A stretch of 64,000 nt of DNA from a virus: positions 7,070-71,069 of the IMG/VR virus record IMGVR_UViG_3300022699_000278; one strand, given 5' to 3'. A model generated the notes under the pieces. The model saw only the letters and a program-made list of their open reading frames with translations, did not search any database and had not been told where the DNA came from. Positions 1 to 32,936 of the stretch are shown piece by piece (position 1 is the stretch's first letter; every line of letters begins with the position of its first letter). The position numbers and the translations under genes are program-made.

Positions 1-58
1 GGGCCGTTTCCGTTTGTACTTGCCGTGTTAGGCTATGTACTACGGCCTCTCCTCATTC

Positions 59-193
59 TTAGCGCGCTCGTTCTTCGGTTTTAATCATGCTTAATTGCCC
101 ACATGCTGCACCAGCTTTGATTTCTGCCTGTGTAGCAATGGCAACTGCATAGTCGTAACCTGCATTGTCAAGCGCCTGTTTAATAGTTTCCAT
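59..193 (-). CDS. 44-aa peptide carrying the RlmN/Cfr C-terminal AACGQL motif (not in the ORF track)
   Basis: Manual translation METIKQALDNAGYDYAVAIATQAEIKAGAACGQLSMIKTEERAR*; SD AAGGAG overlaps the upstream stop; different frame from the radical SAM gene. Confidence 0.8.
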   Translation of the reverse strand: METIKQALDNAGYDYAVAIATQAEIKAGAACGQLSMIKTEERAR

Positions 194-203
194 TACCGAC
201 TCC

Positions 204-989
204 TTAGATTAAATTTATTCCCTGTATTGCACCTTCACCCAACCCGTGCAATTCAGAGCATTCGTTTTTATTGATTGGGCTCAATTTGATAAAGAAACAT
301 TCTGGATCAAAGTATTCTTTTAGCTTCTCTATATCAAAATCGGATTCGTCAACTAAAGTCATATTGACGGTTGTTTTAAGCTTACTATCCGTTTTGATTA
401 GACCAAGTTCTTTGTAGGTTAATTTATTCTTGAATGGAATAAGCCAATTTCTTTTTTCTTCATTCAAACTATGGACACTTACCTGTAGAGTGATGTTGTC
501 TTTGACCCAAGAAAAATCAGAACCTTTAATTCCGATAGTGGACAGATAGTGGTGTGTGTCTGGAAACATAGTATCAAATAACCATATTGCCTGTTTCACT
601 TCTTCGACATTTAGGAACGGTTCACCCATTCGGGTATAATTAATTTTGTGTTCCTTTGCGTTTTGAAAACTATAGCATGGATTTTTGGATAACACAAACT
701 CAATCTGTTCCAGTATTTCAAACCTTGATAAATTGCGACACCTTTTCAATTTTCCTGTTGCACAAAATTTGCACCCGACAGGACAACCACTCATACACGA
801 TACACCAATCATCCAACGCTCTGACCTATCACCTGTAGAGGTGTAATCAAGAGCATTCTGCTTTCTTCCGATTGCGTCTTTTGTATAGTACGGAAGAAAG
901 GTATCTGTTACCTCGACCGGATAGCCATCTTCAGTTTCGAGAAGATAGACCGTTCCGTTTGTAAATGACTTGCTGTTTATTTCTTTCAT
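204..989 (-). CDS. RlmN/Cfr-like radical SAM protein lacking the C-terminal ACGQL segment
   Basis: VSCMSGCPVGCKFCATG (CxxxCxxC), RNLSxxEIxxQ, MGEP, STIG, VSVHS motifs; start placed at MKEINSK. Confidence 0.85.
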   Translation of the reverse strand: MKEINSKSFTNGTVYLLETEDGYPVEVTDTFLPYYTKDAIGRKQNALDYTSTGDRSERWMIGVSCMSGCPVGCKFCATGKLKRCRNLSRFEILEQIEFVLSKNPCYSFQNAKEHKINYTRMGEPFLNVEEVKQAIWLFDTMFPDTHHYLSTIGIKGSDFSWVKDNITLQVSVHSLNEEKRNWLIPFKNKLTYKELGLIKTDSKLKTTVNMTLVDESDFDIEKLKEYFDPECFFIKLSPINKNECSELHGLGEGAIQGINLI

Positions 990-1014
990 GGTTTTTGCCT
1001 TTCGAGCGCGCCTC

Positions 1015-1188
1015 TTATGTCTTGGGCCTGTTGTAAGATGTGCCTGCACTCAGTTTGGAAAACCAAGTAATCCCATCTTCTGATACGTATTCGCCTCCAC
1101 AATTATCAGTAAGAAGCCATTTTTTACCGTCAAATGATAATAAAGAAGCCATATATTCTGATCTACTCAATTCACCATAATTTGGCAT
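1015..1188 (-). CDS. 57-aa hypothetical protein (cassette A2)
   Basis: Manual translation MPNYGELSRSEY...SYNRPKT*; purine-rich leader; reads through an R''-like site at 1030-1041. Confidence 0.5.
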   Translation of the reverse strand: MPNYGELSRSEYMASLLSFDGKKWLLTDNCGGEYVSEDGITWFSKLSAGTSYNRPKT

Positions 1189-1247
1189 TTTAATTTTCCT
1201 TTTCCTTTTGTCTTCCGGCGGCGTTCCTCTGTATTCGGGGCAGGTTT

Positions 1248-1407
1248 ATTGCGCCCAACTCCCTCAGGCACCCGCCCGAAGTGGCTTTGTGAAACCCTCG
1301 CATTCATGCATTGTCCACTTGCCCTTATAAGGGATCTCGACACCACGACACCCTTCATTTTGGCACGTTTCACAAAGACATTTTGGGCTGCCTGTGTTGG
1401 TGGGCGT
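1248..1407 (-). repeat. attC-like hairpin A1 with a coding loop
   Basis: CACCAAC-A-CAGGCAGCCC ... GGGCGGGTGCCTG-AGGGA-GTTGGGCGCAAT; arms nearly identical to those at 15184-15355. Confidence 0.75.
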
Positions 1408-1548
1408 GTTTTCGCCATCCGCATTTTTCTGCCGGGCGGCGACCTTGCGAGTAACAACCTCTGTCAACATCGCGTGAGCCATCGTTACGAGTGCATCGTC
1501 TGGCGCTCCACTTACCGCGCTTATCAAGTTTTCTGCCACCTTATCCAC
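1264..1548 (-). CDS. Hypothetical protein (cassette A1), Cys-rich C-terminus encoded in the attC loop
   Basis: ORF with GAAGGTGG leader; shares NTGSPK and LRAGA* with ORF 15200-15517. Confidence 0.6.
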   Translation of the reverse strand: MDKVAENLISAVSGAPDDALVTMAHAMLTEVVTRKVAARQKNADGENTPTNTGSPKCLCETCQNEGCRGVEIPYKGKWTMHECEGFTKPLRAGA

Positions 1549-1594
1549 GATCTACCACCTTCCCCGCCCGGCCTACAATTCTCCAGGCGAAAAT

Positions 1595-1623
1595 ATGTAC
1601 ACCAACTATACGTTATATGTAAT
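1595..1623 (-). other. attI/dif-like recombination site A
   Basis: ATTACATATAAC-GTATA-GTTGGTGTACAT: inverted arms with a 5-nt spacer, heading cassette array A. Confidence 0.65.
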
Positions 1624-1646
1624 GTACATGAGATACACCATTATTA

Positions 1647-1906: not shown

Positions 1907-2500
1907 CTATTTTTTTGCAAGGATTATATAAATGCCATTGTAGTCACGTTTTCCAGTAAGCTGCAGGTCTGACTCGTACCCGTGCTCTTTCAACATATAC
2001 TTTAATTTGCTGGTATTCCAATGTGGTAGCGGATTGGCTCCAATTTCATCATGACCATATTTGAAAGGATCGCCACTTCTGGTGTGTATAACAACCTTGT
2101 TGCAGCGTTCAAAGACCGTATTTAGTTTTTTTATTTCGTCATCATTTAAGTGGTGCAATACATAGCTTGCTAAAAACAGATCAAACTCAATTTTATCCAG
2201 ATCAACAAACTCGAACATTTCATTTATCAGGGTAACATCTTTTCCTTCAAGGGTTACCTTCGATTGCTTGTAGTACTTTCTGTTCACCTCAATTCCGGTA
2301 TACCCGGCAATTATTCTGTATAAACATAGCGCATACATCCCTGCATTAGAACCAAGCTCAAGAACTTTAGCGCCCTTAAAGAAATCAATATTGTTTTCTA
2401 TCATCGGCAGTCTTTTCTTCAGTTTGTTGTATTTCTGGTATACCTTATCGCCCTTCTTCCAGTTCTTTGATATTTGCCGGTATTCTTTTTCGGTGATCAT
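1907..2500 (-). CDS. Class I SAM-dependent methyltransferase
   Basis: VLELGSNAG motif I, GIE motif II, FDLFLASYVLHHL; paralog of 7358-8518; ATGA coupling to the upstream ORF. Confidence 0.85.
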   Translation of the reverse strand: MITEKEYRQISKNWKKGDKVYQKYNKLKKRLPMIENNIDFFKGAKVLELGSNAGMYALCLYRIIAGYTGIEVNRKYYKQSKVTLEGKDVTLINEMFEFVDLDKIEFDLFLASYVLHHLNDDEIKKLNTVFERCNKVVIHTRSGDPFKYGHDEIGANPLPHWNTSKLKYMLKEHGYESDLQLTGKRDYNGIYIILAKK

Positions 2501-2691
2501 TTTACAGTTCCTATAATACAAACCATATCGTCCGGAAAGTTACAATCAGCACTTTCAAAGCTTATTTTCTCCATACCAAAACATTTGTCATCAGCAGCTA
2601 TTAAGTACTTCCATCCTCCACGTTCTTCATAATGCATCGGCTCTTTTGGCCCATCTACGTATCCATACCTATACTGATACTCATCTTTCAT
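2497..2691 (-). CDS. Hypothetical protein
   Basis: 64-aa ORF with ATGA overlap to the methyltransferase. Confidence 0.5.
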   Translation of the reverse strand: MKDEYQYRYGYVDGPKEPMHYEERGGWKYLIAADDKCFGMEKISFESADCNFPDDMVCIIGTVK

Positions 2692-2788
2692 GGGTGAAAC
2701 CCTACCGATCTATCGTTTGGCCTTGTAGACGTACACCTGCTTAGTATTTCATCTTTTGTGTATTTTATATATATATTTGATTGACTCA

Positions 2789-3052
2789 TTACCCTATTAA
2801 ATACGACTTAGAAAATCTTTTTTTTAAAAGCTTTTCCCTTTTCTTACCCTCAGTAGTTTCCCACCAGTCCTTATCGTATTCTTTATTATACTCCAAAAGT
2901 TTATATGACATTTTCTTCGCCATACGCTCAGCTTCTACAAGCTTTTTACGCACCCTTCTGTCATGTTTTTTGTCACCTTGGTGAAGATCATTTATTTCTC
3001 TGAGGACTTCGCAAAGAGTTCTTACCTTAGTTGCTCTTCGTAACGACATCAC
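2789..3052 (-). CDS. Hypothetical basic protein
   Basis: Overlaps the GT4 stop, operon-like. Confidence 0.6.
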   Translation of the reverse strand: MMSLRRATKVRTLCEVLREINDLHQGDKKHDRRVRKKLVEAERMAKKMSYKLLEYNKEYDKDWWETTEGKKREKLLKKRFSKSYLIG

Positions 3053-4011
3053 AGCGCCACAGCACTTTCTTTTTTAACGTCAATCAACACACTTTCAAAT
3101 GCTTTCTTATACTGCCTGGCAATAGTATCTATATGGATGTGTGCTGGCACAATCATCGTCTTCCTATATGACAAAAGCCCATCAAGTGCTTTTTCAACCA
3201 ATTCAGTATCTATTGGGGGTGGGCTGTTTTTCTGCAACGTTGGCTTTATTGGCTTACTGTCCAGTGGAAGTATTGCACCATACTCTTTTACTATTTCGGC
3301 GTTGCCGCCGATATTGCCTGATATAACAGGTGTCCCGGCAGCAAGAGCTTCAACAACAGCATTGTCACACCATGAAAACCAGCAGATGCTTACCATCACA
3401 TCTGCCATAACCAAGTATCGGCGCAGCAGCTTTTCCGAAACATCTCCTACATATTTAATCTGTTCTTTTGATTTTCTTTCTTCTCTTATTTTGCCACAAA
3501 ACCAGAAACACACATCGGAGTGTTTTTTTATATAATTCTCAGCAATACGAATCATTTCTCTCATCCGCTTATGGGGCCTGACTTTGCTGGATACATATCT
3601 TCCTGAGACTATAACATTCTTTGGGTACTCCGAATCCATTGGCTCAACTTTATAATCTTCAGGATTAGCTCCGTTATATATAATAAACTCCTTTTTGCCC
3701 CTAACTCCAAGTATCTTGGTTACCATGTCGTATGCGAATTTTGTCTGGTAGATAACACCGTCACTAGTTTTTATCGTGTGCTTTATCATTTTCCTGCGCC
3801 AATCGTATTTCTTATCCTTTTCCAGATGAATCCCGTCTATTCGAATCACTTTTCTGCCTTTAGGCTTTTTCTTCCAGTACGACAGCCCAAGTGTCAAATC
3901 TGGCTTGCTGGTGACTATTTCAACACCATTTCTCTCAAGTGCAGGAATAAGCCGTTGTATAAACTTGCTTTTCCCGGTTGAATTCTTCTCGTATTGTATA
4001 GCTATTTTCAT
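3049..4011 (-). CDS. Glycosyltransferase family 4 (GT-B)
   Basis: IIYNG, HKR, NAVVEALAAGTPVISGNIGGNAE (EX7E-type region). Confidence 0.9.
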   Translation of the reverse strand: MKIAIQYEKNSTGKSKFIQRLIPALERNGVEIVTSKPDLTLGLSYWKKKPKGRKVIRIDGIHLEKDKKYDWRRKMIKHTIKTSDGVIYQTKFAYDMVTKILGVRGKKEFIIYNGANPEDYKVEPMDSEYPKNVIVSGRYVSSKVRPHKRMREMIRIAENYIKKHSDVCFWFCGKIREERKSKEQIKYVGDVSEKLLRRYLVMADVMVSICWFSWCDNAVVEALAAGTPVISGNIGGNAEIVKEYGAILPLDSKPIKPTLQKNSPPPIDTELVEKALDGLLSYRKTMIVPAHIHIDTIARQYKKAFESVLIDVKKESAVAL

Positions 4012-4129
4012 ATGTCTATGCTCGTGATAGATACTAAGTCACTAACCTCAAGGTCTTCAAAGGAAGGTGTGAGCATCTCCAAAAACTTACCTTTCCCAAA
4101 TTCATTTAACTTATATTGAATGTGAAGTT

Positions 4130-4846
4130 TCAAAGAATACGTTCCTTGTAATAATTATAAAGTTTATTCCATTTATCATGAACAGTTTTGTTTTTTCTAC
4201 TACAATGCCAAATAATAGAATCATCAGAAAATTGATTATCATTATATTTTTTACCAAGTTCCTGAAAATCTATTTGGTCCTTAAATTTATTGTAACATTT
4301 CCACAAATATTTCTGGTCGTCATACCATTCCAAATGTCGTTCAAGTTTTTCATTCAATCGTTTCAACAAAGCTCGTGTTATATTACTATTCCCTAAAACA
4401 AATACCCCTTTCTGTAATTTTCTTTTGTCCGACTGATCAGGTTTATACATAATCTTCATTGTATTCGCTTTAACATTTTCCCACAACTCGTCAAGATTTC
4501 CTCTTACTATAATATCGACATCCATATGAGCAACTTTTGAATATCCTTCATTTAATGCATCTACCATTGGTGCCGTTCTTTTTGACATTATTGAATTACC
4601 ATAAACATGATTTTTGTATGTAGAAATATTTTTTTCAGATAATATTGAATCTCCATAAACATGGATTCTGCGAACTGTTATATTTTTGTAAACATTTTTT
4701 ATTTTTATACATGATTCTTCAGATAAATCATATGCATATACCAACACTTTTTCATCAAGAGCATTCTCGGAGATTGATTTTAACATAACGCACAATTGTT
4801 CAACATAATTACCATAATTGTTTATTTCCACAGTAATTATATTCAT
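4130..4846 (-). CDS. GT-A fold glycosyltransferase (GT8/GT77-like)
   Basis: MDVDIIVRG DxD motif, DDQKYL, C-terminal KYND...IIWH. Confidence 0.75.
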   Translation of the reverse strand: MNIITVEINNYGNYVEQLCVMLKSISENALDEKVLVYAYDLSEESCIKIKNVYKNITVRRIHVYGDSILSEKNISTYKNHVYGNSIMSKRTAPMVDALNEGYSKVAHMDVDIIVRGNLDELWENVKANTMKIMYKPDQSDKRKLQKGVFVLGNSNITRALLKRLNEKLERHLEWYDDQKYLWKCYNKFKDQIDFQELGKKYNDNQFSDDSIIWHCSRKNKTVHDKWNKLYNYYKERIL

Positions 4847-4874
4847 AGTAATATTTCTACCTTATTTTTTAGGT

Positions 4875-5633
4875 TCATATCGGAAACATCGTGTTTTCTC
4901 TGGTAATGCCCTTTTTTTCCATCTGTCGCAACCGCTTCTTCTGCAATTGTTTCGTTTCTTTATACCATTTATTATCAGCTTTTCTCTTCTTATGTTTCTC
5001 CTCCGAATGCTTCCGATAGAAAGCAACCGGAATATCAATCTTTTTCTTTTTGACGTGATTAAACGGCGAATCTGGATGTATCCCGAGGCGCATGCTCATT
5101 TCCTTGTCTTCTCCTGATCGCAGCCCTTCGTACCAGCCGCCGAATCGCTCAAACACTCTTCTCCTGTACATAACTGTCTGCGGATTTACCTCTGAGGGAT
5201 GTACTCTCAGTTTACGCATCTTCTGGCATGCCTCATAGTACATCAAATCACCACGTACTTCGAGCGCCTTACCCCATACAACATCTATTTTCGGGTGTTT
5301 ATCGAGGTATATTTTCTGCAACCTCAAAGAACCTGGCACACGCATGTCATCGGCATCGAGAAATGTAATGTAGTCTCCTTTAGATATTTTAAGCCCTATA
5401 TTCCTCGCCACCGAAACACCACCGTTCACATTCAAGGGTATATAATGTATGTTTCGTTCGGGAAATTTAAAAGGCCGGAAGATGTCGTTTACCACGTCCT
5501 TTGTTTGGTCGGTACTTGCATCGTCAACTATTATTACCTCTAAGCTGTCTTTGTCGAGTTCCCACACTACCGAATGAAACGCGCTCATAATGTATCTGGC
5601 ATAGTTATATGTCGGTATTATTACGCTAATCAT
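4875..5633 (-). CDS. Glycosyltransferase family 2
   Basis: ISVIIPTYN, IIVDDASTD, NGGVSVARNIGL, FLDADD, GED. Confidence 0.95.
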   Translation of the reverse strand: MISVIIPTYNYARYIMSAFHSVVWELDKDSLEVIIVDDASTDQTKDVVNDIFRPFKFPERNIHYIPLNVNGGVSVARNIGLKISKGDYITFLDADDMRVPGSLRLQKIYLDKHPKIDVVWGKALEVRGDLMYYEACQKMRKLRVHPSEVNPQTVMYRRRVFERFGGWYEGLRSGEDKEMSMRLGIHPDSPFNHVKKKKIDIPVAFYRKHSEEKHKKRKADNKWYKETKQLQKKRLRQMEKKGITRENTMFPI

Positions 5634-6184
5634 AGCATTCCCATAACTTTCTTCTCAAATTTACCGCCCTTGTGCGATCCCGGCTTGTTGTCCTCTGCAA
5701 TCTGAACCGGCACAAACTCCATTCCAACAGCATACATGGCAGCACACCTTCTGCCGCCATGGTATATTTCATATCCTGTAAGCCAGTCGGCAAGGTATTC
5801 AAACCGCGTCTTCCACAATGGTTCTGCAAGCACCAGCACCGGCTGTGCTGCATTACGGCTTTTGCTGAAGCCACGCTTCTTTATACTCTTGAGTATTTTA
5901 TACCTGGACCCAAAGATATGCTCCTTAATAGCGCTTTCAGTCCACTTCTTCATACCAAGCTTATACCTCCACCTGCGGTCCTCTGCAAATCGGCAATGCT
6001 TTAATACCGTCCAGTTCCGCCCGTGTTTAAGAAGCATCTGCGCACACTCCACCTGCGGACTCTTCGGAAGGCTCATGTCGTATCCCCATATATCGTGGTT
6101 TATCAGCTTAGGGATAAACTGATATTTCAGTTCACGCAGTGGAAGGCTTACCGGTTTTCCTTCGAGGAGGGCGTATTCACTCAT
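5630..6184 (-). CDS. ParB/Srx-like domain protein
   Basis: KSIKKRGF...PVLV...YEIYHGGRRCAAMYAVGMEFVPV resembles the ParB N-terminal G-x-x-R motif. Confidence 0.6.
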   Translation of the reverse strand: MSEYALLEGKPVSLPLRELKYQFIPKLINHDIWGYDMSLPKSPQVECAQMLLKHGRNWTVLKHCRFAEDRRWRYKLGMKKWTESAIKEHIFGSRYKILKSIKKRGFSKSRNAAQPVLVLAEPLWKTRFEYLADWLTGYEIYHGGRRCAAMYAVGMEFVPVQIAEDNKPGSHKGGKFEKKVMGML

Positions 6185-7122
6185 ATCAGCGCCCTGAAGA
6201 AGGTTAAATACTGTTTGGCAATATTCTGAATGTATAATTCCTTAGCCAAGCCCTTATCGTAGTTCCATGTCAATGATTCTTTCATGGCCTTTATAAGGAC
6301 TTCCTGATTTATCTTTGGTGGCTTGTTGAGATTTACCGGTCTGTATTTAAACGGTTTATCTTTCAATACCTTCCCGAATACCAGCAACTCATGCGTACCA
6401 CCCTGATCTGTGCATATTACCGGGAGCCCGGCCACTTGTGCCTCAACAACACTGTTCGGACATGCGTCCACATAGGTAAGATGTATCATCGCGTGGCACG
6501 ATCTATAATAAACCGCCAGTTTGTCATCTTTTACATTGTCCTCAAATATTATGTTCCCGTTGTTACCGTACTTCTTATTATACCCCAGAGTGTCGCCGCA
6601 AACATAAAGCGTACTCTTTGGAATTCCAGCTTCAAGAAACGCTCGTATAATTTGATTCAGACGTTTTTGTTTCAACCATACTCTCGTGCTTGCTAAAAAT
6701 ATTACCCGCTCCGGATCGGTTTTTATAAGTGGCTCTACACCATAATTCCGTGGGTCGGCACCGTTGAGTATCACTGTCTCCGGTTTGTTCGGTTTGCATA
6801 CAAGCTTGTGATAAATCTTTTGGGCGTAGAAGGACTGATAAACAACGGCGTCAGCCTTTTTAACTGAAAGCGCCTTTTCGTTGTTTATCTTACGCCAGTT
6901 CATATTGGTGTCAATATTTGCTGGCCCAACGCGGATAACCTGTACCTTGGCTTTTGAACCATAGTTCATCCTACCGATATTAAGAGCAATGTCCGCTTTG
7001 GCCTTCGAATCAGGAGTAACGTTTATACCCATTTCATGCCATGCTTTAACAAGGCGTTGGCAAAATTTACCTTTCCCGGTTTTCCCACGGGCGTAGTATT
7101 TTGGATTTACATGTATCTTCAC
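6181..7122 (-). CDS. Glycosyltransferase family 4 (GT-B)
   Basis: VILNG, QKR, DACPNSVVEAQVAGLPVICTDQGGTHE; paralog of 3049-4011. Confidence 0.9.
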   Translation of the reverse strand: MKIHVNPKYYARGKTGKGKFCQRLVKAWHEMGINVTPDSKAKADIALNIGRMNYGSKAKVQVIRVGPANIDTNMNWRKINNEKALSVKKADAVVYQSFYAQKIYHKLVCKPNKPETVILNGADPRNYGVEPLIKTDPERVIFLASTRVWLKQKRLNQIIRAFLEAGIPKSTLYVCGDTLGYNKKYGNNGNIIFEDNVKDDKLAVYYRSCHAMIHLTYVDACPNSVVEAQVAGLPVICTDQGGTHELLVFGKVLKDKPFKYRPVNLNKPPKINQEVLIKAMKESLTWNYDKGLAKELYIQNIAKQYLTFFRALI

Positions 7123-7128
7123 ATTTCC

Positions 7129-8518: not shown

Positions 8519-8529
8519 TGTATTCTCCT

Positions 8530-10700: not shown

Positions 10701-10809
10701 ATTAACAACATTTCCAATCTACAGAATTTTTATCGTTGTAGGCAATAAAATTTCGCCATTTTACTAAAACAAAAGACTGACAGACATTAAGAACAAAAGG
10801 AATTATAGT

Positions 10810-11076
10810 ATGACTGATGAACAATATTATAAAATTAAGTCCTTTGTTCTTTCTCTGTTTGAGAAAGAAGAACAGTTTTGGATTGAATCTCATAATTTTT
10901 CTGATTTATTTGACCTTTCTCACGGTTATTATCAAGAATTGATTGAACGTGTGACAAAAGAAGATCACCCCTTTTTGAATGACGCTCGTTGTAAAGACGA
11001 ATACGGCGACCCATCCGGCCAGATTCAGTTCTACCGGAAATTAGAAGAGGGTGGGAACCCTGTCCATTTACAATAG
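10810..11076 (+). CDS. Hypothetical protein, counter-oriented
   Basis: SD AAGGA; preceded by core-like GTTGTAGGCAAT at 10735; antisense to the distal part of ORF 10835-11182. Confidence 0.5.
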   Translation: MTDEQYYKIKSFVLSLFEKEEQFWIESHNFSDLFDLSHGYYQELIERVTKEDHPFLNDARCKDEYGDPSGQIQFYRKLEEGGNPVHLQ

Positions 11077-11362
11077 AATCTAAATCAAATTCAATACCAT
11101 TTAATTCAACATATACAGGAGCATCATCGTTCATAAATGTATCGAATTTATTTAATATCGATCTCAAAGTTCCATAGTTCATATAACAACTCCTAATGGC
11201 GGTACTTTCTATATGCGATCTCTGTTGACAAAAGTATTATGAACCCATTTTATCTAAAATCCAATTACCTATAATAGGTATAGCATATCCAATTGGGATA
11301 CAAATAATCATAGAAACAATAAATGGAACAAAAAACGCTATTAAATAAAGGATGATAACATT

Positions 11363-11857
11363 ATGAGTAGTAATACCCCAGAATGTGTAAATTTTCTCCC
11401 CATCATCAGCACATTTTTTGGTTCTTTCTTTGGTGTTATAATTGGTGCGATTTTGAACAATCGTTTTGTTATCAAGAGTACAGATTTGCATTTTTTTAAT
11501 ATCGCCGCTATTAAGTTTAGAAAAGAAATCCACCCTTTTTATAGTGAAGTTCGAGAAATGCTCTTGAAAGATAACAAAGGAATGATCGGCAACAATGAAA
11601 CATGGTCTTATAGAAGAATGCAACAAATCCTTCCCGAGCATAGAAAAATTATTGAAGAATTTATTTTCTCTATTCCTATTAACCATAGGCATAGCTTCGA
11701 CATAATTGCCGACACATACTGTCCCCAAAAAGAAACATATACAGAAGATGATATTAATGCGATGTATTGGTCTGGAGTTGATATGAAAGTTGAAATGTCT
11801 ATAAGAAATAAAATTAAAGAAAAAATTGAACAGATGATGAATTTTAAAATCACGTGA
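11363..11857 (+). CDS. Hypothetical protein with an N-terminal TM helix (inverted cassette)
   Basis: FLPIISTFFGSFFGVIIGAIL; AT-rich; followed by an attC-like site at 11921-12005. Confidence 0.7.
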   Translation: MSSNTPECVNFLPIISTFFGSFFGVIIGAILNNRFVIKSTDLHFFNIAAIKFRKEIHPFYSEVREMLLKDNKGMIGNNETWSYRRMQQILPEHRKIIEEFIFSIPINHRHSFDIIADTYCPQKETYTEDDINAMYWSGVDMKVEMSIRNKIKEKIEQMMNFKIT

Positions 11858-11920
11858 TCTTTTTATTTTGTTAATTCCAATGCTAATAAAGCATGACAAG
11901 AAGTAAAATGGCGAAAAATT

Positions 11921-12005
11921 ACAGCCTACAACACGCAAAGGCAGGCTCGAAGACTCGCCCAAACGCTGACGCGCTTCTGCATTTGCGGAACCGTTGTTAA
12001 GTAAT
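11921..12005 (+). repeat. attC-like hairpin, short and non-coding
   Basis: ACAGCCTACAAC-A-CGCAAAGGCAG ... CTGCATTTGCG-GAACC-GTTGTTAAGTAAT. Confidence 0.75.
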
Positions 12006-12089: not shown

Positions 12090-12335
12090 CTATATCAAAT
12101 CCCAAAAATTATCGTTAACCGCTTGCGTAAATTCAGACGGCACATTTTTCTGACTTGCAATAAACTCTGTTAACTTTTCCTTGATATCCGCTAGCATTAC
12201 GGACGAACCGCTGTCGGTGGATGTAACCTTTGCTGCCACTAGATCGGCGACTTCCGCTGCTGCCACTGATGCCGCTTCGTCCGTAATGCACTTGCCACGT
12301 ATAGCATAAAATATTTCGTTGAACAGTGTCGCCAT
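12090..12335 (-). CDS. Hypothetical protein (cassette B1)
   Basis: SD GGGGAG; reads through R''-like ACATCCACCGAC; arm GCGGTT pairs with AACCGC-GAACA-GTTAGCG at about 12057-12074. Confidence 0.6.
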   Translation of the reverse strand: MATLFNEIFYAIRGKCITDEAASVAAAEVADLVAAKVTSTDSGSSVMLADIKEKLTEFIASQKNVPSEFTQAVNDNFWDLI

Positions 12336-12357
12336 ATAACTCCCCAAAGCAAAGTTT

Positions 12358-12386
12358 ATTTACACCAACTTATTGTTATCAGAACC
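12358..12386 (-). other. attI/dif-like recombination site B
   Basis: GGTTCTGATAAC-AATAA-GTTGGTGTAAAT. Confidence 0.6.
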
Positions 12387-12389
12387 ATC

Positions 12390-13407: not shown

Positions 13408-14001
13408 CTAAATATTTAGATTGTATCGATTAAGAATATTGTTTAACTTTGTCATAAACCCATTAAGTTTTTCTTCAATTTCGTTGAAGTTTATATCTTT
13501 TGCAAAAAACCTTTTTTCGTAATATGCAAGATCACCGGAAAGATCGGAACAATAACCGAAATAGTCCCAATATTCGCGACCGGTACAAAACAAATTCCAT
13601 TTAATTTGCCATGCATATTTTTTATCTATTTTATCTGTTAAGATAACTCGGATATGGTTATCGGGAAGTAAACATTTTATTTCGACCCCCCCGTTCTCTC
13701 CGATCAACCCGTCGGGAGAACAGCCACACATACTATATACTGGATGTTCAATGTATGCGATTTCTTTTACTGCTGTATTATGTACAATTTTATAATATTC
13801 GAGGGCCTCATTCTCCATTTCAATACCACGTTTCATTGCTTGTGTTAACGGAGTCGCCTTTCTCTGAGCCATAGCAATCTCTGATATTAATAATGCCATA
13901 AGGTTTTTTTGCGCCAACTCGGACCCCATTAAATCATCCGCACGGGTTCCGGTTATCTTCCCGAGCTTTTCCGCAAACCATTCTTCTGACCGCTGTTTCA
14001 T
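13408..14001 (-). CDS. YqaJ/lambda-type exonuclease
   Basis: QRSEEWF..KLGKITG, MKRGIEME, GCSPDGL, VEIKC. Confidence 0.92.
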   Translation of the reverse strand: MKQRSEEWFAEKLGKITGTRADDLMGSELAQKNLMALLISEIAMAQRKATPLTQAMKRGIEMENEALEYYKIVHNTAVKEIAYIEHPVYSMCGCSPDGLIGENGGVEIKCLLPDNHIRVILTDKIDKKYAWQIKWNLFCTGREYWDYFGYCSDLSGDLAYYEKRFFAKDINFNEIEEKLNGFMTKLNNILNRYNLNI

Positions 14002-14002
14002 A

Positions 14003-14563
14003 TTATGCCTCTTTCTTCTTGAGCATTCCGATCACAACAGCGGCAGCACGAAAACCAAGGTCTTCAACAGTTTCCCCCCATCCACGATTTTTGATAAAAT
14101 CGTTAATCTTTTCGGGATCAACTTTTTTTTCTGCTGAAAGGGTGTGTATTTTATTTTTTTGTTCTTCTGTTGCTGGCCTGGTTTCTGTATGCCCGTTCAA
14201 GCTACCGTCATCGTCGTAAGTGAGTACGTTGAGTATACAGCATAACGAATACCTTCGTGCATACGTCAGGGCACTTCCAAATCGTATGGCCTCTGGTTTT
14301 GGCATTAGTAGGGTTATATTTACAACAGATTCTAATTGGCTTTCGTCATCATACAGTATTGTCTTTAGAAGCTGTTGTCCATCTCCTACCGTAGGAATAT
14401 AACAAACAGAAAGCCCTAATTCTATTAGAATTGGCATTACCGCATTTGTTACATCTTCGAGGTTCGCATATTTTGATTTTGTAAATTCGTTATTGCGGGT
14501 TTTATTTACACCAGAAAAAAGCCTCTGAAATTCAGCTATTTTTGTTAACATTTTTTGATTCAT
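14003..14563 (-). CDS. ERF-family ssDNA annealing protein
   Basis: SKYANLEDV, GSALTYARRYSL, DDDG; SD GGGAGG. Confidence 0.92.
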   Translation of the reverse strand: MNQKMLTKIAEFQRLFSGVNKTRNNEFTKSKYANLEDVTNAVMPILIELGLSVCYIPTVGDGQQLLKTILYDDESQLESVVNITLLMPKPEAIRFGSALTYARRYSLCCILNVLTYDDDGSLNGHTETRPATEEQKNKIHTLSAEKKVDPEKINDFIKNRGWGETVEDLGFRAAAVVIGMLKKKEA

Positions 14564-14616
14564 TCTTACCTCCCATTCACTTTGGCATGCTTTGATTACT
14601 CTTAATGGAATCATTA

Positions 14617-15140: not shown

Positions 15141-15183
15141 TGTATCCCCCAGTGAGCCAACCTATAAAATAAAAATCAATTTA

Positions 15184-15355
15184 ATTGCAATCAACGTTCT
15201 CAGGCGCCCGCCCGAAGTTGCTGATATACAAATTTACAAAACTGTGATAATACGCGCATGTCTCGACCATCAGCACACGTTGACTTATCTTCCACATACT
15301 TGTGAACCATTTCCTTAACGTCAGGCAATTTTGGACTGCCTGTGTTGTTAGACGT
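15184..15355 (-). repeat. attC-like hairpin C1 with a coding loop
   Basis: ACGTCTAACAAC-A-CAGGCAGTCCAAAATTGC ... GCAACTTCGGGCGGGCGCCTG-AGAAC-GTTGATTGCAAT. Confidence 0.75.
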
Positions 15356-15517: not shown

Positions 15518-15547
15518 GGTCGAACCTCCAATATAAAAGGGCCAGTT

Positions 15548-15576
15548 ATGTTTTACAACTACTTGCTATGCGTAAT
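15548..15576 (-). other. attI/dif-like recombination site C
   Basis: ATTACGCATAGC-AAGTA-GTTGTAAAACAT; first 21 nt differ by 1 nt from site D at 30570. Confidence 0.7.
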
Positions 15577-30198: not shown

Positions 30199-30248
30199 GC
30201 TGCATTGTCGGGAATTATGTGTTATATTACTTATCATGATAGGGATAA

Positions 30249-30512
30249 TTGAAATTTATAAATGTGAATGCGATAAATGCGGTCACGAGTGGACATCCAG
30301 ATCGGGAAAAATCCCGGTCGCGTGTCCGGTGTGTAAATCGAGAAAATGGAACGAATTATCAAAAGGTTCTACTCGCAAGAAACAGAATAAAGTTGCAGCA
30401 TAAAACGTATCTGTATGAAGGTATGAAAAATATTATTCTAGCAAATGATTTTACCGTATCGCAATTCATGTTCGGGTGCACTGCGATGGCAATTGAAGCA
30501 ATGAATAAATGA
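30249..30512 (+). CDS. Hypothetical protein
   Basis: ORF co-oriented with the replication operon. Confidence 0.45.
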   Translation: MKFINVNAINAVTSGHPDREKSRSRVRCVNRENGTNYQKVLLARNRIKLQHKTYLYEGMKNIILANDFTVSQFMFGCTAMAIEAMNK

Positions 30513-30569
30513 CATCTCGAATACATTACCAACAAGGACAGGTTGATTTTATTTAACTTACGCAGGGCC

Positions 30570-30598
30570 ATTGCGCATAGCAAGTAGTTGGCCAAAAT
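30570..30598 (+). other. attI/dif-like recombination site D
   Basis: ATTGCGCATAGC-AAGTA-GTTGGCCAAAAT; heads the largest array. Confidence 0.7.
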
Positions 30599-30644
30599 AA
30601 ACCGCGCTGAGATTGTAGTTCGGCGCATACAGAACGGAGCGTTT

Positions 30645-30830
30645 ATGTCTGAATTACAGTTTCACAAGTGCGGCGAAGATATGGTACGTATCGGAAATTA
30701 TACATATTTCAACAAGCATCTCGAAAGTAAGCAGCCATCAAACGTTGTAGGGTTACAGCGGTACAATCGTCGAACAGAACAGTACGAAACATACAACCCA
30801 CATACGGAAGGGCCGTGCGCCGAAAGATAA
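30645..30830 (+). CDS. Hypothetical protein (cassette D1)
   Basis: SD GGAG; bounded by complementary cassette ends. Confidence 0.55.
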   Translation: MSELQFHKCGEDMVRIGNYTYFNKHLESKQPSNVVGLQRYNRRTEQYETYNPHTEGPCAER

Positions 30831-30940
30831 TTATGATGCGCGGTTTACATCGGCTAACAGGCCAAGGCGTACATGCCCAAAGCTGCACGCCCGCCGTTGG
30901 CCAACCCGTTGTACGCAATTAAGCCGGAGAGCAATATTAT

Positions 30941-31564
30941 ATGTGCGCCCGTAAATACAACATCATCTATGCAGACCCGCCGTGGAACGGATTGGGTTGG
31001 AATAATGGTTCAGGCAAAAAGTGTCCAGCTAACCATTACGCAGTGCAAGATATCGCGTGGATAAAATCTCTGCCGGTTTCAGAATTGGCCCAAGACACCA
31101 GCGCACTTTTCTTGTGGGTAACTTTTCCGAATCTAACAGGCGGGCTTGCTGTTATGGAGTCTTGGGGTTTTAAGTACGCAACGTGCGCTTTTACGTGGGT
31201 CAAGCGTAATCGATGTTCAGATGGTCGGTTTATGGGTTGTGGTAACTATACAAGGGCCAATTCTGAACTGTGCTTGCTTGGCACTCGTGGGAGTTGTCAG
31301 TCTTTGCGGAAGTCTCGTTCGGTTCGTCAGATTTGTGATGCTCCGGTTGGTAAACACAGCGAAAAACCGGCAGAGATACGCGACCGCATTGTGCAGCTTT
31401 TTGGCGATTTGCCGAGGGTAGAACTTTTTGCCAGAACAATCACGGCGGGTTGGGATGTGTGGGGTAACGAAGTTTCATCATCAATAGAGCTGGGCGCACA
31501 GAACACTATGGAATCCGGCTCAACAGCGTATAACACAGGTTGGGTGCAATGCCGCCCTTTTTGA
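30941..31564 (+). CDS. MT-A70 family adenine methyltransferase (cassette D2)
   Basis: YNIIYADPPW, LFLWVT, FTWVK, GNYTRANSELCL, HSEKP, VELFAR, GWDVWGNE. Confidence 0.93.
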   Translation: MCARKYNIIYADPPWNGLGWNNGSGKKCPANHYAVQDIAWIKSLPVSELAQDTSALFLWVTFPNLTGGLAVMESWGFKYATCAFTWVKRNRCSDGRFMGCGNYTRANSELCLLGTRGSCQSLRKSRSVRQICDAPVGKHSEKPAEIRDRIVQLFGDLPRVELFARTITAGWDVWGNEVSSSIELGAQNTMESGSTAYNTGWVQCRPF

Positions 31565-31581
31565 GATTATAGGAGCGCCGA

Positions 31582-31899
31582 ATGAAAGTAACTCTTGAGT
31601 ATTTACGTAAGGTCTGTAATCAAATGGCAGAAGCGAAGGTGGCACCTTTGCCGGTGTACATTGCCATTATTGGTGACAAAAAGTACATGTGTCCAGTGTC
31701 GTCGTTGCCGGAAGGTCTTGCCCCGTTACCGTGCGAGATCGTCGGCGCTCAGTTTTCTGAGGAAGCGGGCGGCACAGACACACAACACTGCCATGTTGCA
31801 AGCTCCGAGGGAGACATTTGCCCTAATTGCGGTGCCGGAAATACATGGAACAAACGTTACGGCAGACACTTGTGTGGTACGTGTGAATACGAATGGTGA
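31582..31899 (+). CDS. Hypothetical protein with a C-terminal Zn ribbon (cassette D3)
   Basis: SD AGGAG; CPNC...CGTC lies in the attC loop. Confidence 0.65.
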   Translation: MKVTLEYLRKVCNQMAEAKVAPLPVYIAIIGDKKYMCPVSSLPEGLAPLPCEIVGAQFSEEAGGTDTQHCHVASSEGDICPNCGAGNTWNKRYGRHLCGTCEYEW

Positions 31900-31960
31900 T
31901 CGGGCAAACGTCAACATGCCTGAGAGTGTTGGTAAAATATAATTTTCTATTGGAGATTAT

Positions 31961-32212
31961 ATGAGCAACAAATGTAATATATATCTTGCTAAAAGTGTTT
32001 CTATAACTCAAATAGACTCTCCTTCGTGTAAAGAGTTTTTACTGGTGGTAGAAAAATTACAGCCTGTAACACAGGTTAAATGCTCCACTGGCGCTACGGT
32101 GGTACAAATTTGCCCTTCATGTGAAGGTACTGGTAATCTATATCCGATAAAGTTAGAAAAACCAATCGTTTGTTCACGCTGTAAGGGTACGGGCAAACTT
32201 CTTTTAACCTAA
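31961..32212 (+). CDS. Hypothetical protein with a DnaJ-type CxxCxGxG finger (cassette D4)
   Basis: CPSCEGTG...CSRCKGTG encoded in the attC loop. Confidence 0.65.
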   Translation: MSNKCNIYLAKSVSITQIDSPSCKEFLLVVEKLQPVTQVKCSTGATVVQICPSCEGTGNLYPIKLEKPIVCSRCKGTGKLLLT

Positions 32213-32257
32213 ACCGTTATAGACAATAGTCTTCTTAAATTTATTATAGGCAGTGCT

Positions 32258-32671
32258 ATGAAACAAGCTTTTGAAAAGTACCAAAATGAATGCATGTTTT
32301 ACAAATTGGTTGCAAATATGTTTCAAATAGTTGCAAATAACCGTCTTTCATGTCAAGATATTTTGAGTGCTGCAATGCTGGCTGTGCTATTTTACGAACG
32401 TGATGTTCGCACCGCGGAATTTGTAGGGACTCAGCCTGCCGCCAATAACGGAGGTTATGTGCGCGGCTATAAAGCGATTAGTTTTGATGATTTTGTGAAG
32501 ATTCGTGATTGTCAAGGTACGAAAATGTATGATGGTTCTAATGCGATTATTTGCAAGCCACGCCTTGGCGGTAGGTGGTTTTGTGATTTTACAAGCTGTT
32601 CTATTTGGCGAAAGTTGGGGCGGCGCGCTGATATTAAGGTGGTAAAAATTTCATCGCACAACAAGTGCTAA
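32258..32671 (+). CDS. Hypothetical protein spanning two cassette units (D5)
   Basis: Reads through the AAC-GGAG-GTT junction at 32447-32456. Confidence 0.55.
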   Translation: MKQAFEKYQNECMFYKLVANMFQIVANNRLSCQDILSAAMLAVLFYERDVRTAEFVGTQPAANNGGYVRGYKAISFDDFVKIRDCQGTKMYDGSNAIICKPRLGGRWFCDFTSCSIWRKLGRRADIKVVKISSHNKC

Positions 32672-32733
32672 AAGTAAGGGCTAAAGCCACATTGCGGAGC
32701 AACGTCTTTTAGCACTGCTCCGTTGGTGTAAAT
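32651..32733 (+). repeat. attC-like hairpin, short
   Basis: CATCGCACAAC-A-AGTGCTAAAAG ... CTTTTAGCACT-GCTCC-GTTGGTGTAAAT; 11-bp perfect arms. Confidence 0.8.
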
Positions 32734-32780
32734 AGCGTTTGCCTTTATATTATAGGCGGCGCACAAAGAAAGGATTTATC

Positions 32781-32936
32781 ATGATAGAGAAAATTGGCAA
32801 TGTCAAATGTTCGCGTTGTGGTCGGGAGTGGACTGCTGCGTGCGAGTCTATTGAAACCAAGTCTGTTGAATGTCCTGACTGTGGGTTTATGCAGCCAATA
32901 TCCTCAAATGACATAACTGGCCGGGACGTTGTGTGA
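32781..32936 (+). CDS. Small Zn-ribbon protein
   Basis: CSRC...CPDC; SD AAGGA. Confidence 0.6.
   Translation: MIEKIGNVKCSRCGREWTAACESIETKSVECPDCGFMQPISSNDITGRDVV

What the first reader, a model, noticed from the sequence alone, without database searches (positions are those of the whole stretch)
27..32936. Phage-borne integron-like cassette system: four arrays, no integrase in the window
Seen: the small accessory genes sit in four arrays (A about 27-1623 minus, B about 12050-12386 minus, C about 14620-15576 minus, D 30570-32936 plus) plus an inverted unit at 11224-12005. They share one grammar. Units begin GTT-N6-A(A/C)T (1606, 1259, 12369, 15559, 15195, 30587, 30908, 31539, 32216, 32722). 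Most end ACA(T/G)C-N4-AAC or a close variant. An attC-like hairpin follows: AAC-A-[arm]...[arm']-5 nt-GTT, e.g. GGCCAA/TTGGCC at 30860-30902 and AGTGCTAAAAG/CTTTTAGCACT at 32664-32716. Established: GTT cores, AAC inverse cores and imperfect palindromes are the hallmarks of integron attC/attI sites recombined by IntI tyrosine recombinases. Inference: this phage gains and shuffles accessory genes (MT-A70, RlmN-like, Zn-finger ORFs) as site-specific cassettes, using a host or off-window recombinase. The 1-nt/5-nt asymmetry differs from classical attC geometry.
Basis: partly seen in the sequence, partly recalled or inferred. Interest (0 to 1): 0.92.

Follow-up and report, generated by a model that had tools for sequence, protein, structure and literature searches.

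The report
Hairpin-ended gene cassettes in a phage
The small accessory genes of this phage sit in self-contained modules, each closed by its own matching inverted ends, and related phages swap these modules whole, which works like a bacterial integron but shows no integron enzyme.

Summary

What is there is a composite module in front of small genes. It consists of a 5' arm (C)GTT-N6-AAT-N10, then box B ATTATAGG about 15 nt on, then an SD-like sequence and the start codon. Further downstream lies a 3' arm, N10'-ACA-N6'-AAC, that is the reverse complement of the same unit's 5' arm.

- **Own-end pairing:** in 68 non-redundant units from this phage and other IMG/VR phages, the unit's first 9 nt recur as a reverse complement inside the same unit in 49 (≤1 mismatch). 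Swapped partners give 13%.
- **Block boundaries:** homologous blocks shared between unrelated phages start at GTT, and in 4 of 5 comparisons end at AAC.
- **No enzyme found:** no tyrosine recombinase in this 71-kb record or in 10 other array-bearing records.
- **Canonical attC features are not met.**

Best reading (about 0.5): integron-like, structure-defined cassettes moved by an unidentified enzyme. Main rival: PeSL-like regulatory cassettes shuffled by homologous recombination.

Earlier notes of this scan report the same kind of element on other DNA, in at least 79 genomes.

The parts
30587..30608 (+). Unit D1, 5' arm (GTT-N6-AAT-N10). Box B-like ATTGTAGT lies at 30612-30619; the ORF at 30646-30830 (61 aa).
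30838..30858 (+). Unit D1, 3' arm (GCGCGGTTTACATCGGCTAAC), reverse complement of 30587-30608 in 17 of 21 positions.
   Evidence: z 3.8; 0 of 200 shuffled probes reach the score
30860..30902 (+). Linker hairpin between D1 and D2 (GGCCAA...TTGGCC), 49 nt between AAC and the next GTT.
   Evidence: In other phages a linker of 44-74 nt is the commonest AAC-to-GTT spacing.
30908..30929 (+). Unit D2, 5' arm. Box B ATTATATG at 30936-30943 holds the start codon of the MT-A70 methyltransferase gene (30941-31564).
   Evidence: (PF05063, E 1.3e-22)
31514..31534 (+). Unit D2, 3' arm, inside the 29-codon C-terminal extension of MT-A70. It shows compensatory changes against the orthologous unit of L011.
   Evidence: duplex -28.3 kcal/mol; z 4.1
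31539..31573 (+). Unit D3, 5' arm plus box B (31566-31573). The arm overlaps the end of the MT-A70 ORF. The unit's ORF is 31582-31899, and its 3' arm at 31767-31786 lies inside that ORF.
   Evidence: z 2.4
31929..31963 (+). Unit D4: box A one base short (GTTGGTAAAAT) plus ATTATATG. ORF 31961-32212. No 3' arm detected.
32216..32250 (+). Unit D5: box A plus box B. ORF 32258-32671. No 3' arm detected. The module is 77% identical over 65 nt to L011 14003-14067, which precedes a different ORF.
32664..32716 (+). Hairpin upstream of unit D6 (11-bp arms). An alternative 8-bp hairpin, GCGGAGCA/TGCTCCGT, abuts the GTT.
32722..32756 (+). Unit D6: box A plus box B, the best match to the family profile. 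ORF ends at 32936. No 3' arm detected.
   Evidence: (E 8.7e-06)
1572..1606 (-). Unit A1: 5' arm plus box B (1579-1572). ORF 1548-1264. The 3' arm at 1416-1396 lies inside the ORF.
   Evidence: z 3.0
1225..1259 (-). Unit A2: box A with a weak box B. It precedes ORF 1188-1015 and the radical SAM gene (1049-204). No 3' arm detected.
   Evidence: z 0.7
12333..12369 (-). Unit B1: 5' arm plus GTTATATG. 3' arm at 12234-12213.
   Evidence: z 2.2
15525..15559 (-). Unit C1: 5' arm plus ATTGGAGG. ORF 15517-15200. The 3' arm at 15364-15344 lies inside the ORF.
   Evidence: z 2.5
15161..15195 (-). Unit C2: box A plus box B. ORF 15140-14925. No 3' arm detected.
10735..11932 (+). Counter-oriented unit in the minus-strand block. 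The 5' arm at 10735-10764 pairs with the 3' arm at 11903-11932 in 26 of 30 positions, the best-paired arms in the window.
   Evidence: z 10.3
13408..14614 (-). The phage's own homologous-recombination genes: YqaJ-like exonuclease (13408-14001) and ERF single-strand annealing protein (14003-14614). A RecU/VRR-NUC-like nuclease lies at 10302-10700.

Best explanation
The accessory genes are packaged as self-contained cassettes.

Each cassette runs from (C)GTT to AAC(A). It opens with a 5' arm (GTT-N6-AAT-N10), followed by a promoter-like box B (ATTATAGG), an SD-like sequence and the gene. It closes with a 3' arm (N10'-ACA-N6'-AAC) that is the reverse complement of its own 5' arm, apart from a conserved 2x2 mismatch (AA opposite CA).

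The two arms are best read as the halves of one palindromic, folded-DNA site. That site is contiguous only when the cassette is circular or permuted (...AAC|GTT...). This is the logic of integron cassettes, but with much longer, cassette-specific arms.

Cassettes are exchanged whole between very different phages by breakage and joining at the foot of this stem. The enzyme is not encoded in this phage, so it is presumably a host recombinase or an unrecognised one.

Shown here: the arms, their covariation, their unit specificity, the block boundaries and the absence of known recombinases.

Inferred: the circular intermediate, single-strand folding and the site-specific enzyme. That box B acts as a promoter is also inferred.
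For: 1. **Own-arm complementarity.** Of 68 non-redundant units, the reverse complement of the first 9 nt recurs in the same unit exactly in 18 and with ≤1 mismatch in 49. Probes tried on other units give 1.3% and 12.9%. Reversed, uncomplemented probes give 2 and 6 of 68.
2. **Regular architecture.** The layout is 9 bp, then the AA/CA mismatch, then about 10 bp. Arms are ≥17 long in 30 of 49 units.
3. **Pairing is with the own partner, not the neighbour.** A local palindrome lies upstream in 1 of 68 units. The 3' arm fits the next unit in 6 of 49. Joined own arms fold at -12.8/-13.7 kcal/mol, against -4.3±2.2 for permuted partners.
4. **Bottom strand favoured.** It is the more stable in 32 of 49 units (paired t, p 3e-5). 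The recurrent top-strand mismatch is A·C, in 26 of 30 units at position 11.
5. **No sign of RNA-level pairing.** G·T pairs are not in excess over A·C (32 against 33; 7 against 14). The ORF reads through the 3' arm in 37 of 49 units and past the next box A in 2 more.
6. **Block boundaries.** The left edge lies at (C)GTT in all five comparisons: L093/L098, G001/L091, L002/L100, window/L011 and the four-way set. The right edge lies at AAC plus 1-5 nt in four of the five. The neighbours are unrelated.
7. **Compensatory changes** occur in orthologous arms.
8. **Distribution.** The same grammar occurs in many IMG/VR phage contigs that share almost no proteins, including complete genomes of 168 and 254 kb.
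9. **Cultured phage.** Polaribacter phage P12002L has GTT-N6...N6'-AAC pairs around single genes and a local AAC-hairpin-GTT site. In that phage, Qi et al. 2023 (PMC9892861, section 3.4 read) report attC sites recombined by IntI1.
Against: - No recombinase of any searched family is present. PF00589 is absent from all 11 array-bearing records. PF00239, PF01797 and PF01548 are absent from this record.
- In integrons the whole attC travels with the cassette. Here the linker hairpin does not.
- In two cases the same arms hold unrelated cargo, so exchange also happens inside the arms: MT-A70 against an N6_N4-type methylase, and a 1.4-kb against a 0.5-kb insert.
- 5 of the 12 window units have box A and box B but no detectable 3' arm. 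The conserved 5' module therefore has a function of its own, probably regulatory.
- No circle junction, empty site or presence/absence polymorphism was observed, and no close relatives were available.
- The 5' module was not found in the 151 Flavobacteriaceae genomes searched, so no host array or host enzyme is tied to it.
Confidence: 0.5

Rival explanations
1. PeSL-like regulatory cassettes. Box A-N15-box B is a phage early promoter and the hairpins are attenuators. The repeated modules act as short homologies for homologous or microhomology recombination by the phage's ERF/YqaJ system, and that recombination shuffles ORFans. On this reading there is no site-specific enzyme.
For: - The bipartite motif has fixed spacing (14-17 nt in 68 of 70 sites). 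It always lies upstream of and co-oriented with a small ORF, 0-30 nt before an SD-like sequence and the start codon.
- The motif is kept in units that lack arms.
- It is absent from the virion operon.
- The phage encodes ERF, YqaJ and a RecU-like nuclease.
- Whole modules, non-consensus spacer included, are conserved in front of different genes.
- Cargo swaps occur inside conserved 60-nt ends.
- PeSLs have the same make-up: promoter, stem-loop, SD, next to ORFans, with mini-circles (Arbiol et al. 2010, PMC2839356; abstract and the PeSL results section read).
Against: - It does not explain why each unit's 5' arm is complementary to its own 3' arm, with a conserved mismatch.
- It does not explain why breakpoints fall at the 5-nt CGTT rather than in the longer conserved box B.
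- Neither box matches a sigma-70 consensus or, from recall, the Bacteroidota -33/-7 consensus.
- No sigma factor was found. The search for a T7-like RNA polymerase found none either, but its control failed.
- No transcript data were available.
Confidence: 0.25
2. Long-range RNA stems. The arms pair in the transcript and flank each cistron, either as RNase III-type processing or stability elements or as a translational coupling device.
For: - The helix is 9 + 10 bp around an internal loop, about two turns, the size of RNase III substrates (from recall).
- The arms are always co-oriented with the gene.
Against: - There is no excess of G·U-compatible pairs on the sense strand: G·T 32 against A·C 33, and 7 against 14 in the best 30 units.
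- The antisense strand folds better.
- The 3' arm lies inside the translated ORF in 37 of 49 units.
- Block boundaries at GTT and AAC are DNA-level events.
Confidence: 0.07
3. Transposon-like or invertible elements. The arms are terminal inverted repeats of MITE-like cargo elements, or the inverted repeats of gene-sized invertons acted on by a transposase or invertase.
For: - Elements are bounded exactly by inverted repeats.
- The same ends carry different cargo in different contexts.
- One counter-oriented unit lies in the window at 10735-11932.
Against: - The repeats are unit-specific and covary instead of sharing one protein-binding sequence.
- There is no target-site duplication: C stands before GTT in 45 of 49 units and A after AAC in 44 of 49.
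- No transposase or invertase family was found.
- No pair of relatives with opposite orientation of the same unit was seen.
Confidence: 0.08
4. A true integron remnant (CALIN): canonical attC sites recombined by an IntI integrase of the host.
For: - The sites have GTT and AAC cores, and the bottom strand is favoured.
- Qi et al. 2023 report CALINs in virulent phages, with IntI1 activity on phage attC sites (PMC9892861, section 3.4 read).
Against: - By eye, only 2 of the 10 listed sites fit GTTRRRY; the family consensus is GTTGTAC.
- The arms enclose the gene rather than forming a compact site of 57-141 nt.
- No IntI is present.
- The cassettes carry their own promoter-like box.
Confidence: 0.03

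Closest known systems
Integron gene cassettes and attC sites, including integrase-less clusters (CALINs) reported in virulent phages (Qi et al. 2023, PMC9892861; abstract, methods passages and section 3.4 read)
   Same: - Single-gene cassettes lie in co-oriented arrays.
- The sites are defined by structure rather than sequence, with AAC and GTT cores and conserved unpaired bases.
- A cassette's 5' end is complementary to its own 3' site, the signature of circular permutation.
- The bottom strand pairs better.
- Methyltransferases are among the cargo.
   Different: - There is no IntI.
- The arms are 20-30 nt, not 7.
- The core is GTTGTAC-like, not GTTRRRY.
- The arms flank the gene and are never adjacent in the array.
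- The exchanged block ends at AAC, not at the next G|TT.
- Each cassette has its own promoter-like box and SD-like sequence.
- ORFs commonly read through the 3' arm.
PeSLs, promoter-early stem-loops of T4-type phages (Arbiol et al. 2010, PMC2839356, abstract and PeSL results read; Comeau et al. 2014, PMC4122927, search listing only)
   Same: - Composite repeats combine a promoter-like motif, a stem-loop and an SD-like sequence.
- They lie in front of ORFans in hyperplastic regions.
- Insertions, deletions and replacements are bounded by the repeats.
- The phage has its own recombination genes.
   Different: - PeSL promoters match sigma-70; these do not.
- PeSLs have no gene-flanking, unit-specific complementary arms.
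- PeSL shuffling is homologous recombination between direct repeats.
rAID-1 arrays of gut Bacteroidales (Ross et al., bioRxiv 10.1101/471110; passages read)
   Same: Arrays of small co-oriented genes with repetitive intergenic sequences, which the authors call reminiscent of integrons. They occur in Bacteroidota and are headed by a XerD-family tyrosine recombinase, not an IntI.
   Different: - They are chromosomal and recombinase-headed, with immunity-gene cargo.
- I could not compare their repeats with these arms. The figure is not held and no rAID sequence was fetched.
- This record has no such recombinase.
Polaribacter phage P12002L (NC_028924), a cultured Bacteroidota phage with a reported CALIN
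   Same: - GTT-N6...N6'-AAC pairs surround single genes: methyltransferase gp35, gp37, and the lone counter-oriented gp24.
- A local CTAAC-hairpin-GTTAGG site is present.
   Different: - The genome is AT-rich (29% G+C).
- The arm carrying AAT sits at the 3' side of the gene.
- The window's 5'-module profile does not match: best E 0.64.
- About 1 of the 6 pairs is expected by chance (my own estimate).

Membership tests
Integron (IntI + attI + attC cassettes) | IntI-type tyrosine recombinase at the head of the array | tested here: not met
   PF00589 is absent from the whole 71,069-base record and from 10 other array-bearing virus records, two of them 100% and one 95% complete. The control rang in 14 of 14 genomes.
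Integron (IntI + attI + attC cassettes) | attC cores R'' RYYYAAC and R' GTTRRRY | tested here: not met
   GTT and AAC are present, but by eye only 2 of the 10 listed window sites fit GTTRRRY. The family consensus is CGTTGTNNGCAAT.
Integron (IntI + attI + attC cassettes) | Compact local attC hairpin (about 57-141 nt) after each ORF, with R and L boxes and extrahelical bases | tested here: inconclusive
   Local hairpins of 8-12 bp lie between AAC and the next GTT, and the spacing clusters at 44-74 nt. However, the long arms pair across the gene: a local palindrome occurs in 1 of 68 units. Site-specific pairing inside the linker is weak (-5.89 against -5.17 kcal/mol; 5 of 2000 permutations).
Integron (IntI + attI + attC cassettes) | A cassette's 5' end is complementary to its own 3' site (circular-permutation signature) | tested here: met
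   49 of 68 units at ≤1 mismatch in 9 nt, against 12.9% in controls. The 3' arm fits the next unit in 6 of 49.
Integron (IntI + attI + attC cassettes) | Exchange of whole cassettes by crossover at G|TT | tested here: inconclusive
   The left edge of shared blocks lies at (C)GTT in 5 of 5 comparisons. The right edge lies at AAC, not at the next GTT, in 4 of 5. No circles or empty sites were seen.
Integron (IntI + attI + attC cassettes) | Promoterless cassettes expressed from a common Pc | tested here: not met
   Each unit has a conserved box B and an SD-like sequence at fixed spacing. Promoter activity itself was not tested.
Integron (IntI + attI + attC cassettes) | Score above threshold with the attC covariance model (IntegronFinder, HattCI) | not testable with these tools
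   No attC model is on hand. Rfam gave no match on the window at gathering thresholds, and only 3 weak sub-threshold snoRNA/sRNA hits (E 0.37-0.84) on 30200-33300 at E ≤1.
PeSL regulatory cassettes (T4-type phages) | Sigma-70-like early promoter plus stem-loop in front of ORFans in plastic regions | tested here: inconclusive
   A bipartite motif, hairpins and an SD-like sequence are present and confined to the accessory regions. The boxes do not match sigma-70, and function was not tested.
rAID-1 / Xer-headed cassette arrays of Bacteroidota | XerD-like tyrosine recombinase at the 5' end of the array | tested here: not met
   No PF00589 domain in this record or in the other 10 records. The 5' module was not found in the 151 Flavobacteriaceae genomes searched.
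TIR transposons / MITEs | Family-wide identical terminal repeats and a target-site duplication | tested here: not met
   The arms are unit-specific. The flanks are C...A and show no duplication.

The most novel reading that the evidence does not exclude
Phages that share almost no genes, from 30 kb to 250 kb, draw on a common pool of single-gene cassettes. Each cassette carries half of a private palindrome at either end. The palindrome becomes whole, and recombinogenic as folded bottom-strand DNA, only in the excised circle. A host enzyme that reads structure rather than sequence, for instance a Xer-like recombinase, cuts at the foot of the stem. That would be a second, integrase-independent lineage of integron-like gene capture, one that operates in virulent phages.
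Probability: 0.4. Interest if true: 0.9.

Novelty: new variant of a known kind. Interest (0 to 1): 0.8.

Why it matters
If the cassettes are truly mobile, this is a general route by which virulent phages acquire and swap host-takeover and anti-defence genes. The cargo here includes methyltransferases and zinc-ribbon proteins. No integrase is involved, and the route crosses between phage families that share no other genes.

It would also extend the integron principle in two ways. Structure-addressed recombination of single genes would reach a new site geometry and a new enzyme, and a bacterial group in which classical integrons are rare (from recall).

Even on the conservative reading, regulatory cassettes shuffled by homologous recombination, the modules define the plastic part of these genomes. 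They give a ready search key for accessory genes in metagenomic phages.

Tried and rejected
- **Motif as written.** GTT-N6-AMT is not enriched.
- **Promoter-only reading.** This was my first view. I dropped it as the sole explanation after the own-arm test.
- **Hairpin between the spacer and the sequence after box B.** The effect is weak, -6.05 against -5.44 kcal/mol, with 24 of 2000 permutations as low. A subset of 14-16 of 70 sites is strong.
- **First long-range test by duplex energy.** Modest: z -3.0, with 7 of 5000 permutations as low. The conserved cores pair generically.
- **Close relatives.**
  - DNA searches of GenBank phages found nothing.
  - A portal protein search found nothing.
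  - The primase finds only distant Cellulophaga and Flavobacterium phages, at 28% identity.
  - A single-protein locus search found none.
  - An alignment-based search gave L001-L080, of which only L002 and L011 carry the modules.
- **Unit-specific arm pattern.** It found only L011's own contig.
- **MT-A70 relatives.** In 0 of 80 loci do arms surround the gene.
- **Known RNA families.** None fits. There was nothing on the window at gathering thresholds; L111 holds a tmRNA and a tRNA. Only 3 weak sub-threshold hits appeared on 30200-33300.
- **Sequencing runs.** None was listed, and no RNA holder was listed.
- **Prokaryote genomes.** Only L262, a 2-kb contig of a bin, has real modules.
- **Model R1 of the 5' module.** 0 of 5 Bacteroidota genomes and 0 of 151 Flavobacteriaceae genomes matched. 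The answer itself warns that an empty result shows little.
- **T7-like RNA polymerase.** None found, but the control rang nowhere, so this is uninformative.
- **Shared proteins among six array-bearing records.** Only one window protein, the 258-aa product of 43237-44013 next to the amidase, is shared with three of the others. It has no Pfam family, so it gives no candidate enzyme.
- **Supplements of Qi et al. 2023.** I cannot say whether their P12002L attC sites are the ones I describe.
- **Not used:** structure prediction, protein atlas, complex prediction and the metagenome-contig scan.

Full report
**Setting**

The window is bases 7070-71069 of a 71,069-base IMG/VR virus record that CheckV rates 93% complete. 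It is a tailed phage. It has a large terminase, portal, major head protein and tail fibres, a primase-helicase and a DnaD-like loader, and ERF, YqaJ and a RecU-like nuclease. It also carries a long block of glycosyl- and methyltransferases.

The nearest GenBank phages are only distant. The primase is 28% identical to that of Cellulophaga phages, and 172 of the 237 matching records are Flavobacterium phages. A Bacteroidota host is therefore likely but not shown.

Eight of the ten listed sites match GTT-N6-A(A/C)T; the other two read ...CAT. The motif as written is no more frequent than in shuffles: 105 matches against 93.4±8.4.

Aligning the sites shows much more. There is a box A, (C)GTT-N6-AAT. 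A box B, ATTATAGG, follows 14-17 nt downstream in 68 of 70 sites. Then comes a G+C-rich stretch, an SD-like sequence and the start codon of a small ORF on the same strand.

The stricter pattern gives 9 matches against 3.2±1.8 expected. A profile of 18 sites finds nothing at E<1 in the virion operon. It does find unseeded sites in two relatives, 8 in L011 and 7 in L002.

An exact-pattern scan of IMG/VR returned 33 loci, about the number expected by chance (my estimate). The profile then showed dense arrays in many of them: L100 with 16 sites in 12 kb, L111 with 11, L093 with 10 and L098 with 9. The grammar therefore belongs to a large set of uncultivated phages.

**First reading, and why it changed**

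The fixed spacing, the co-orientation and the position just upstream of start codons look like a promoter. The make-up is that of the PeSLs of T4-type phages: promoter, stem-loop and SD in front of ORFans (PMC2839356, abstract and PeSL results section read).

I tested this on 68 non-redundant units, defined as GTT to the next GTT, 150-1500 nt apart. They come from this record, L011's record, and L085-L117.

- The reverse complement of a unit's first 9 nt recurs within the same unit exactly in 18 units and with at most one mismatch in 49.
- The same probes tried on other units succeed in 1.3% and 12.9% of trials.
- Reversed but uncomplemented probes succeed in 2 and 6 of 68.

The architecture is regular. 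The 5' arm is GTT-N6-AA-T-N10 and the 3' arm is N10'-A-CA-N6'-AAC. This gives 9 bp, a conserved 2x2 mismatch (A·A in 23 of 30 units, A·C in 26 of 30), then about 10 bp. Arms reach 17 nt or more in 30 of 49 units.

In the window itself the arms are more decayed. Seven of 12 units have one at z 2.2-10.3 and five have none.

**RNA or DNA?**

- In 37 of 49 units the ORF reads through the 3' arm, and in 2 more it reads past the next box A. It stops before the arm in 8.
- G·T pairs are not in excess over A·C: 32 against 33 overall, and 7 against 14 in the 30 best units.
- When the two arms of a unit are joined in silico and folded with DNA parameters, they give -12.8 kcal/mol on the top strand and -13.7 on the bottom, against -4.3±2.2 for permuted partners.
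- The bottom strand is the more stable in 32 of 49 units (paired t, p 3e-5).

This argues against a sense-RNA structure. It fits folded bottom-strand DNA, as at attC sites.

The arms pair with their own partner, not with the neighbour. A local palindrome lies upstream of a GTT in 1 of 68 units, and the 3' arm fits the next unit in 6 of 49.

**Do units move?**

The array-bearing phages share almost no proteins, yet single units recur among them. I made five comparisons.

1. L093 against L098: about 80% identity runs exactly from CGTT to AAC(+A). The flanks are unrelated, and there is one compensatory change in the arms.
2. L002 against L100: a block bounded by GTT and AAC(+5).
3. L011's record against L091: the same 60-nt 5' end and 58-nt 3' end at 93-96% identity. 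The cargo is unrelated (1.4 kb against 0.5 kb), and so are the flanks outside GTT and AAC.
4. Window unit D2 against L011: the arms are conserved with compensatory changes (AGCCGGA/TCCGGCT against CACCGGA/TCCGGTG). The window holds MT-A70 and L011 an N6_N4-type methylase.
5. One unit present in four contigs: homology starts at GTT and fades about 20 nt after AAC.

The MT-A70 core has homologues of 73-76% identity elsewhere that lack arms and have their own stop codon. In the window it reads on for 29 codons through the 3' arm.

The left edge is thus at GTT in 5 of 5 comparisons and the right edge at AAC in 4 of 5. In two cases the cargo changed inside conserved ends, which is not an event at GTT.

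The linker between AAC and the next GTT clusters at 44-74 nt and is often a local hairpin. It is not part of the shared block.

**Enzymes**

- No tyrosine recombinase in this record or in ten other array-bearing records, two of them 100% and one 95% complete.
- No serine recombinase, Y1 HUH transposase or IS110-type transposase here.
- No Sigma70_r2 domain.
- The search for a T7-like RNA polymerase had a failed control.

**Comparison with the known**

The circular-permutation signature, the structure-defined sites, the AAC/GTT cores, the conserved unpaired bases and the bottom-strand bias are those of integron cassettes. The defining features are not met:

- no IntI;
- no GTTRRRY core;
- no compact attC;
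- the cassettes carry their own expression signals.

I therefore do not file this as an integron.

Qi et al. 2023 report integrase-less attC clusters in virulent phages, including Polaribacter phage P12002L, and IntI1 activity on five of six sites tested (PMC9892861, section 3.4 read; supplements not seen). In P12002L I find six GTT-N6-AAT sites with their own 9-mer complement downstream. Some surround single genes, and there is a local CTAAC-hairpin-GTTAGG site. By my own estimate about one of the six is expected by chance.

The rAID-1 arrays of Bacteroidales pair a XerD-like recombinase with integron-like intergenic repeats (10.1101/471110, passages read). I could not compare their repeats with these arms.

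Earlier notes of this scan describe the same kind of element in at least 79 other genomes. They also claim Xer-like recombinases next to such arrays in some phages and in Flavobacteriaceae chromosomes. I did not confirm that:

- 0 of my 11 phage records has such an enzyme;
- the 5'-module model matched 0 of the 151 Flavobacteriaceae genomes searched;
- a scan of prokaryote genomes, capped at 120 rows, found real modules only on one 2-kb contig of a bin.

**Verdict**

The finding is real and richer than stated. The best-supported reading, at about 0.5, is an integron-like, structure-addressed cassette system with split private palindromes, internal expression signals and an unknown enzyme. PeSL-like regulatory cassettes shuffled by the phage's own recombination system remain a serious rival at about 0.25. 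The two readings are not exclusive, since the 5' module probably also serves expression.

No paper in my four searches describes gene-flanking, unit-specific GTT...AAC arms in phages. That is a statement about those searches only.

Noticed in passing
window 1907-10271, also 16159-16950 and L081 3811-4755: A long run of glycosyltransferases (GT1, GT2, GT8 families), SAM methyltransferases and a weak sulfotransferase-like hit on the minus strand. This is an unusually large glycan-building block for a 71-kb phage.
   Followed up: partly
window 204-1049 and 59-193: A radical SAM protein (weak Pfam hit, E 5e-05) is followed by a 44-aa ORF. I did not test that.
   Followed up: no
window 46697-47010, 47492-47805 and 48196-48306: Internal tandem repeats of about 800 nt period inside the 1332-aa tail-fibre gene. 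The repeat copies are 83-97% identical at protein level.
   Followed up: no
record 486-1253 (L081) and window 63722-63979: Related protein segments (72% identity) are encoded near both ends of the linear record. They may be paralogues or a sign of terminal redundancy or incomplete assembly.
   Followed up: no
window 32960-33000: A strong G+C-rich hairpin (ACCCCGACC...GGTCGGGGT) closes array D. On the minus strand it is followed by a T-run, so it is terminator-like.
   Followed up: no
window 43237-44013: A 258-aa protein with no Pfam family lies next to the amidase (44014-44469). It is the only window protein shared with three other array-bearing phage records (30-35% identity). It may be a host-specific lysis protein.
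   Followed up: partly
L111 1065-1414 and 6669-6743: A 219-kb virus record with cassette arrays carries a tmRNA gene (74.8 bits) and a tRNA gene beside the array.
   Followed up: no
L111 about 3680-3780: A tandem duplication of a 49-nt segment that begins with a unit's 3' arm (ACAAACAACAG...). It may be a footprint of slippage or recombination at the arm.
   Followed up: no
L118 (NC_028924) 14630-15197: In Polaribacter phage P12002L, gp24 is the only counter-oriented gene in the tail-gene block. It is bracketed by GTTGTGTAC...GTACACAAC, like an inserted cassette.
   Followed up: partly
window 21249-21524 and L081 6615-7058: Two weak HNH endonuclease hits (E 1.5e-04 and 7e-03). They could be free-standing homing-type nucleases.
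   Followed up: no
many units, e.g. L100, L111, L096, L097; window 1264-1290 and 15200-15225: ORFs of unrelated cassettes share short C-terminal tails (for example ...LRAGA*...SAVR*, WQTLKTAVLAQQTNN). They read through conserved arm or linker DNA, in different frames in different units.
   Followed up: partly
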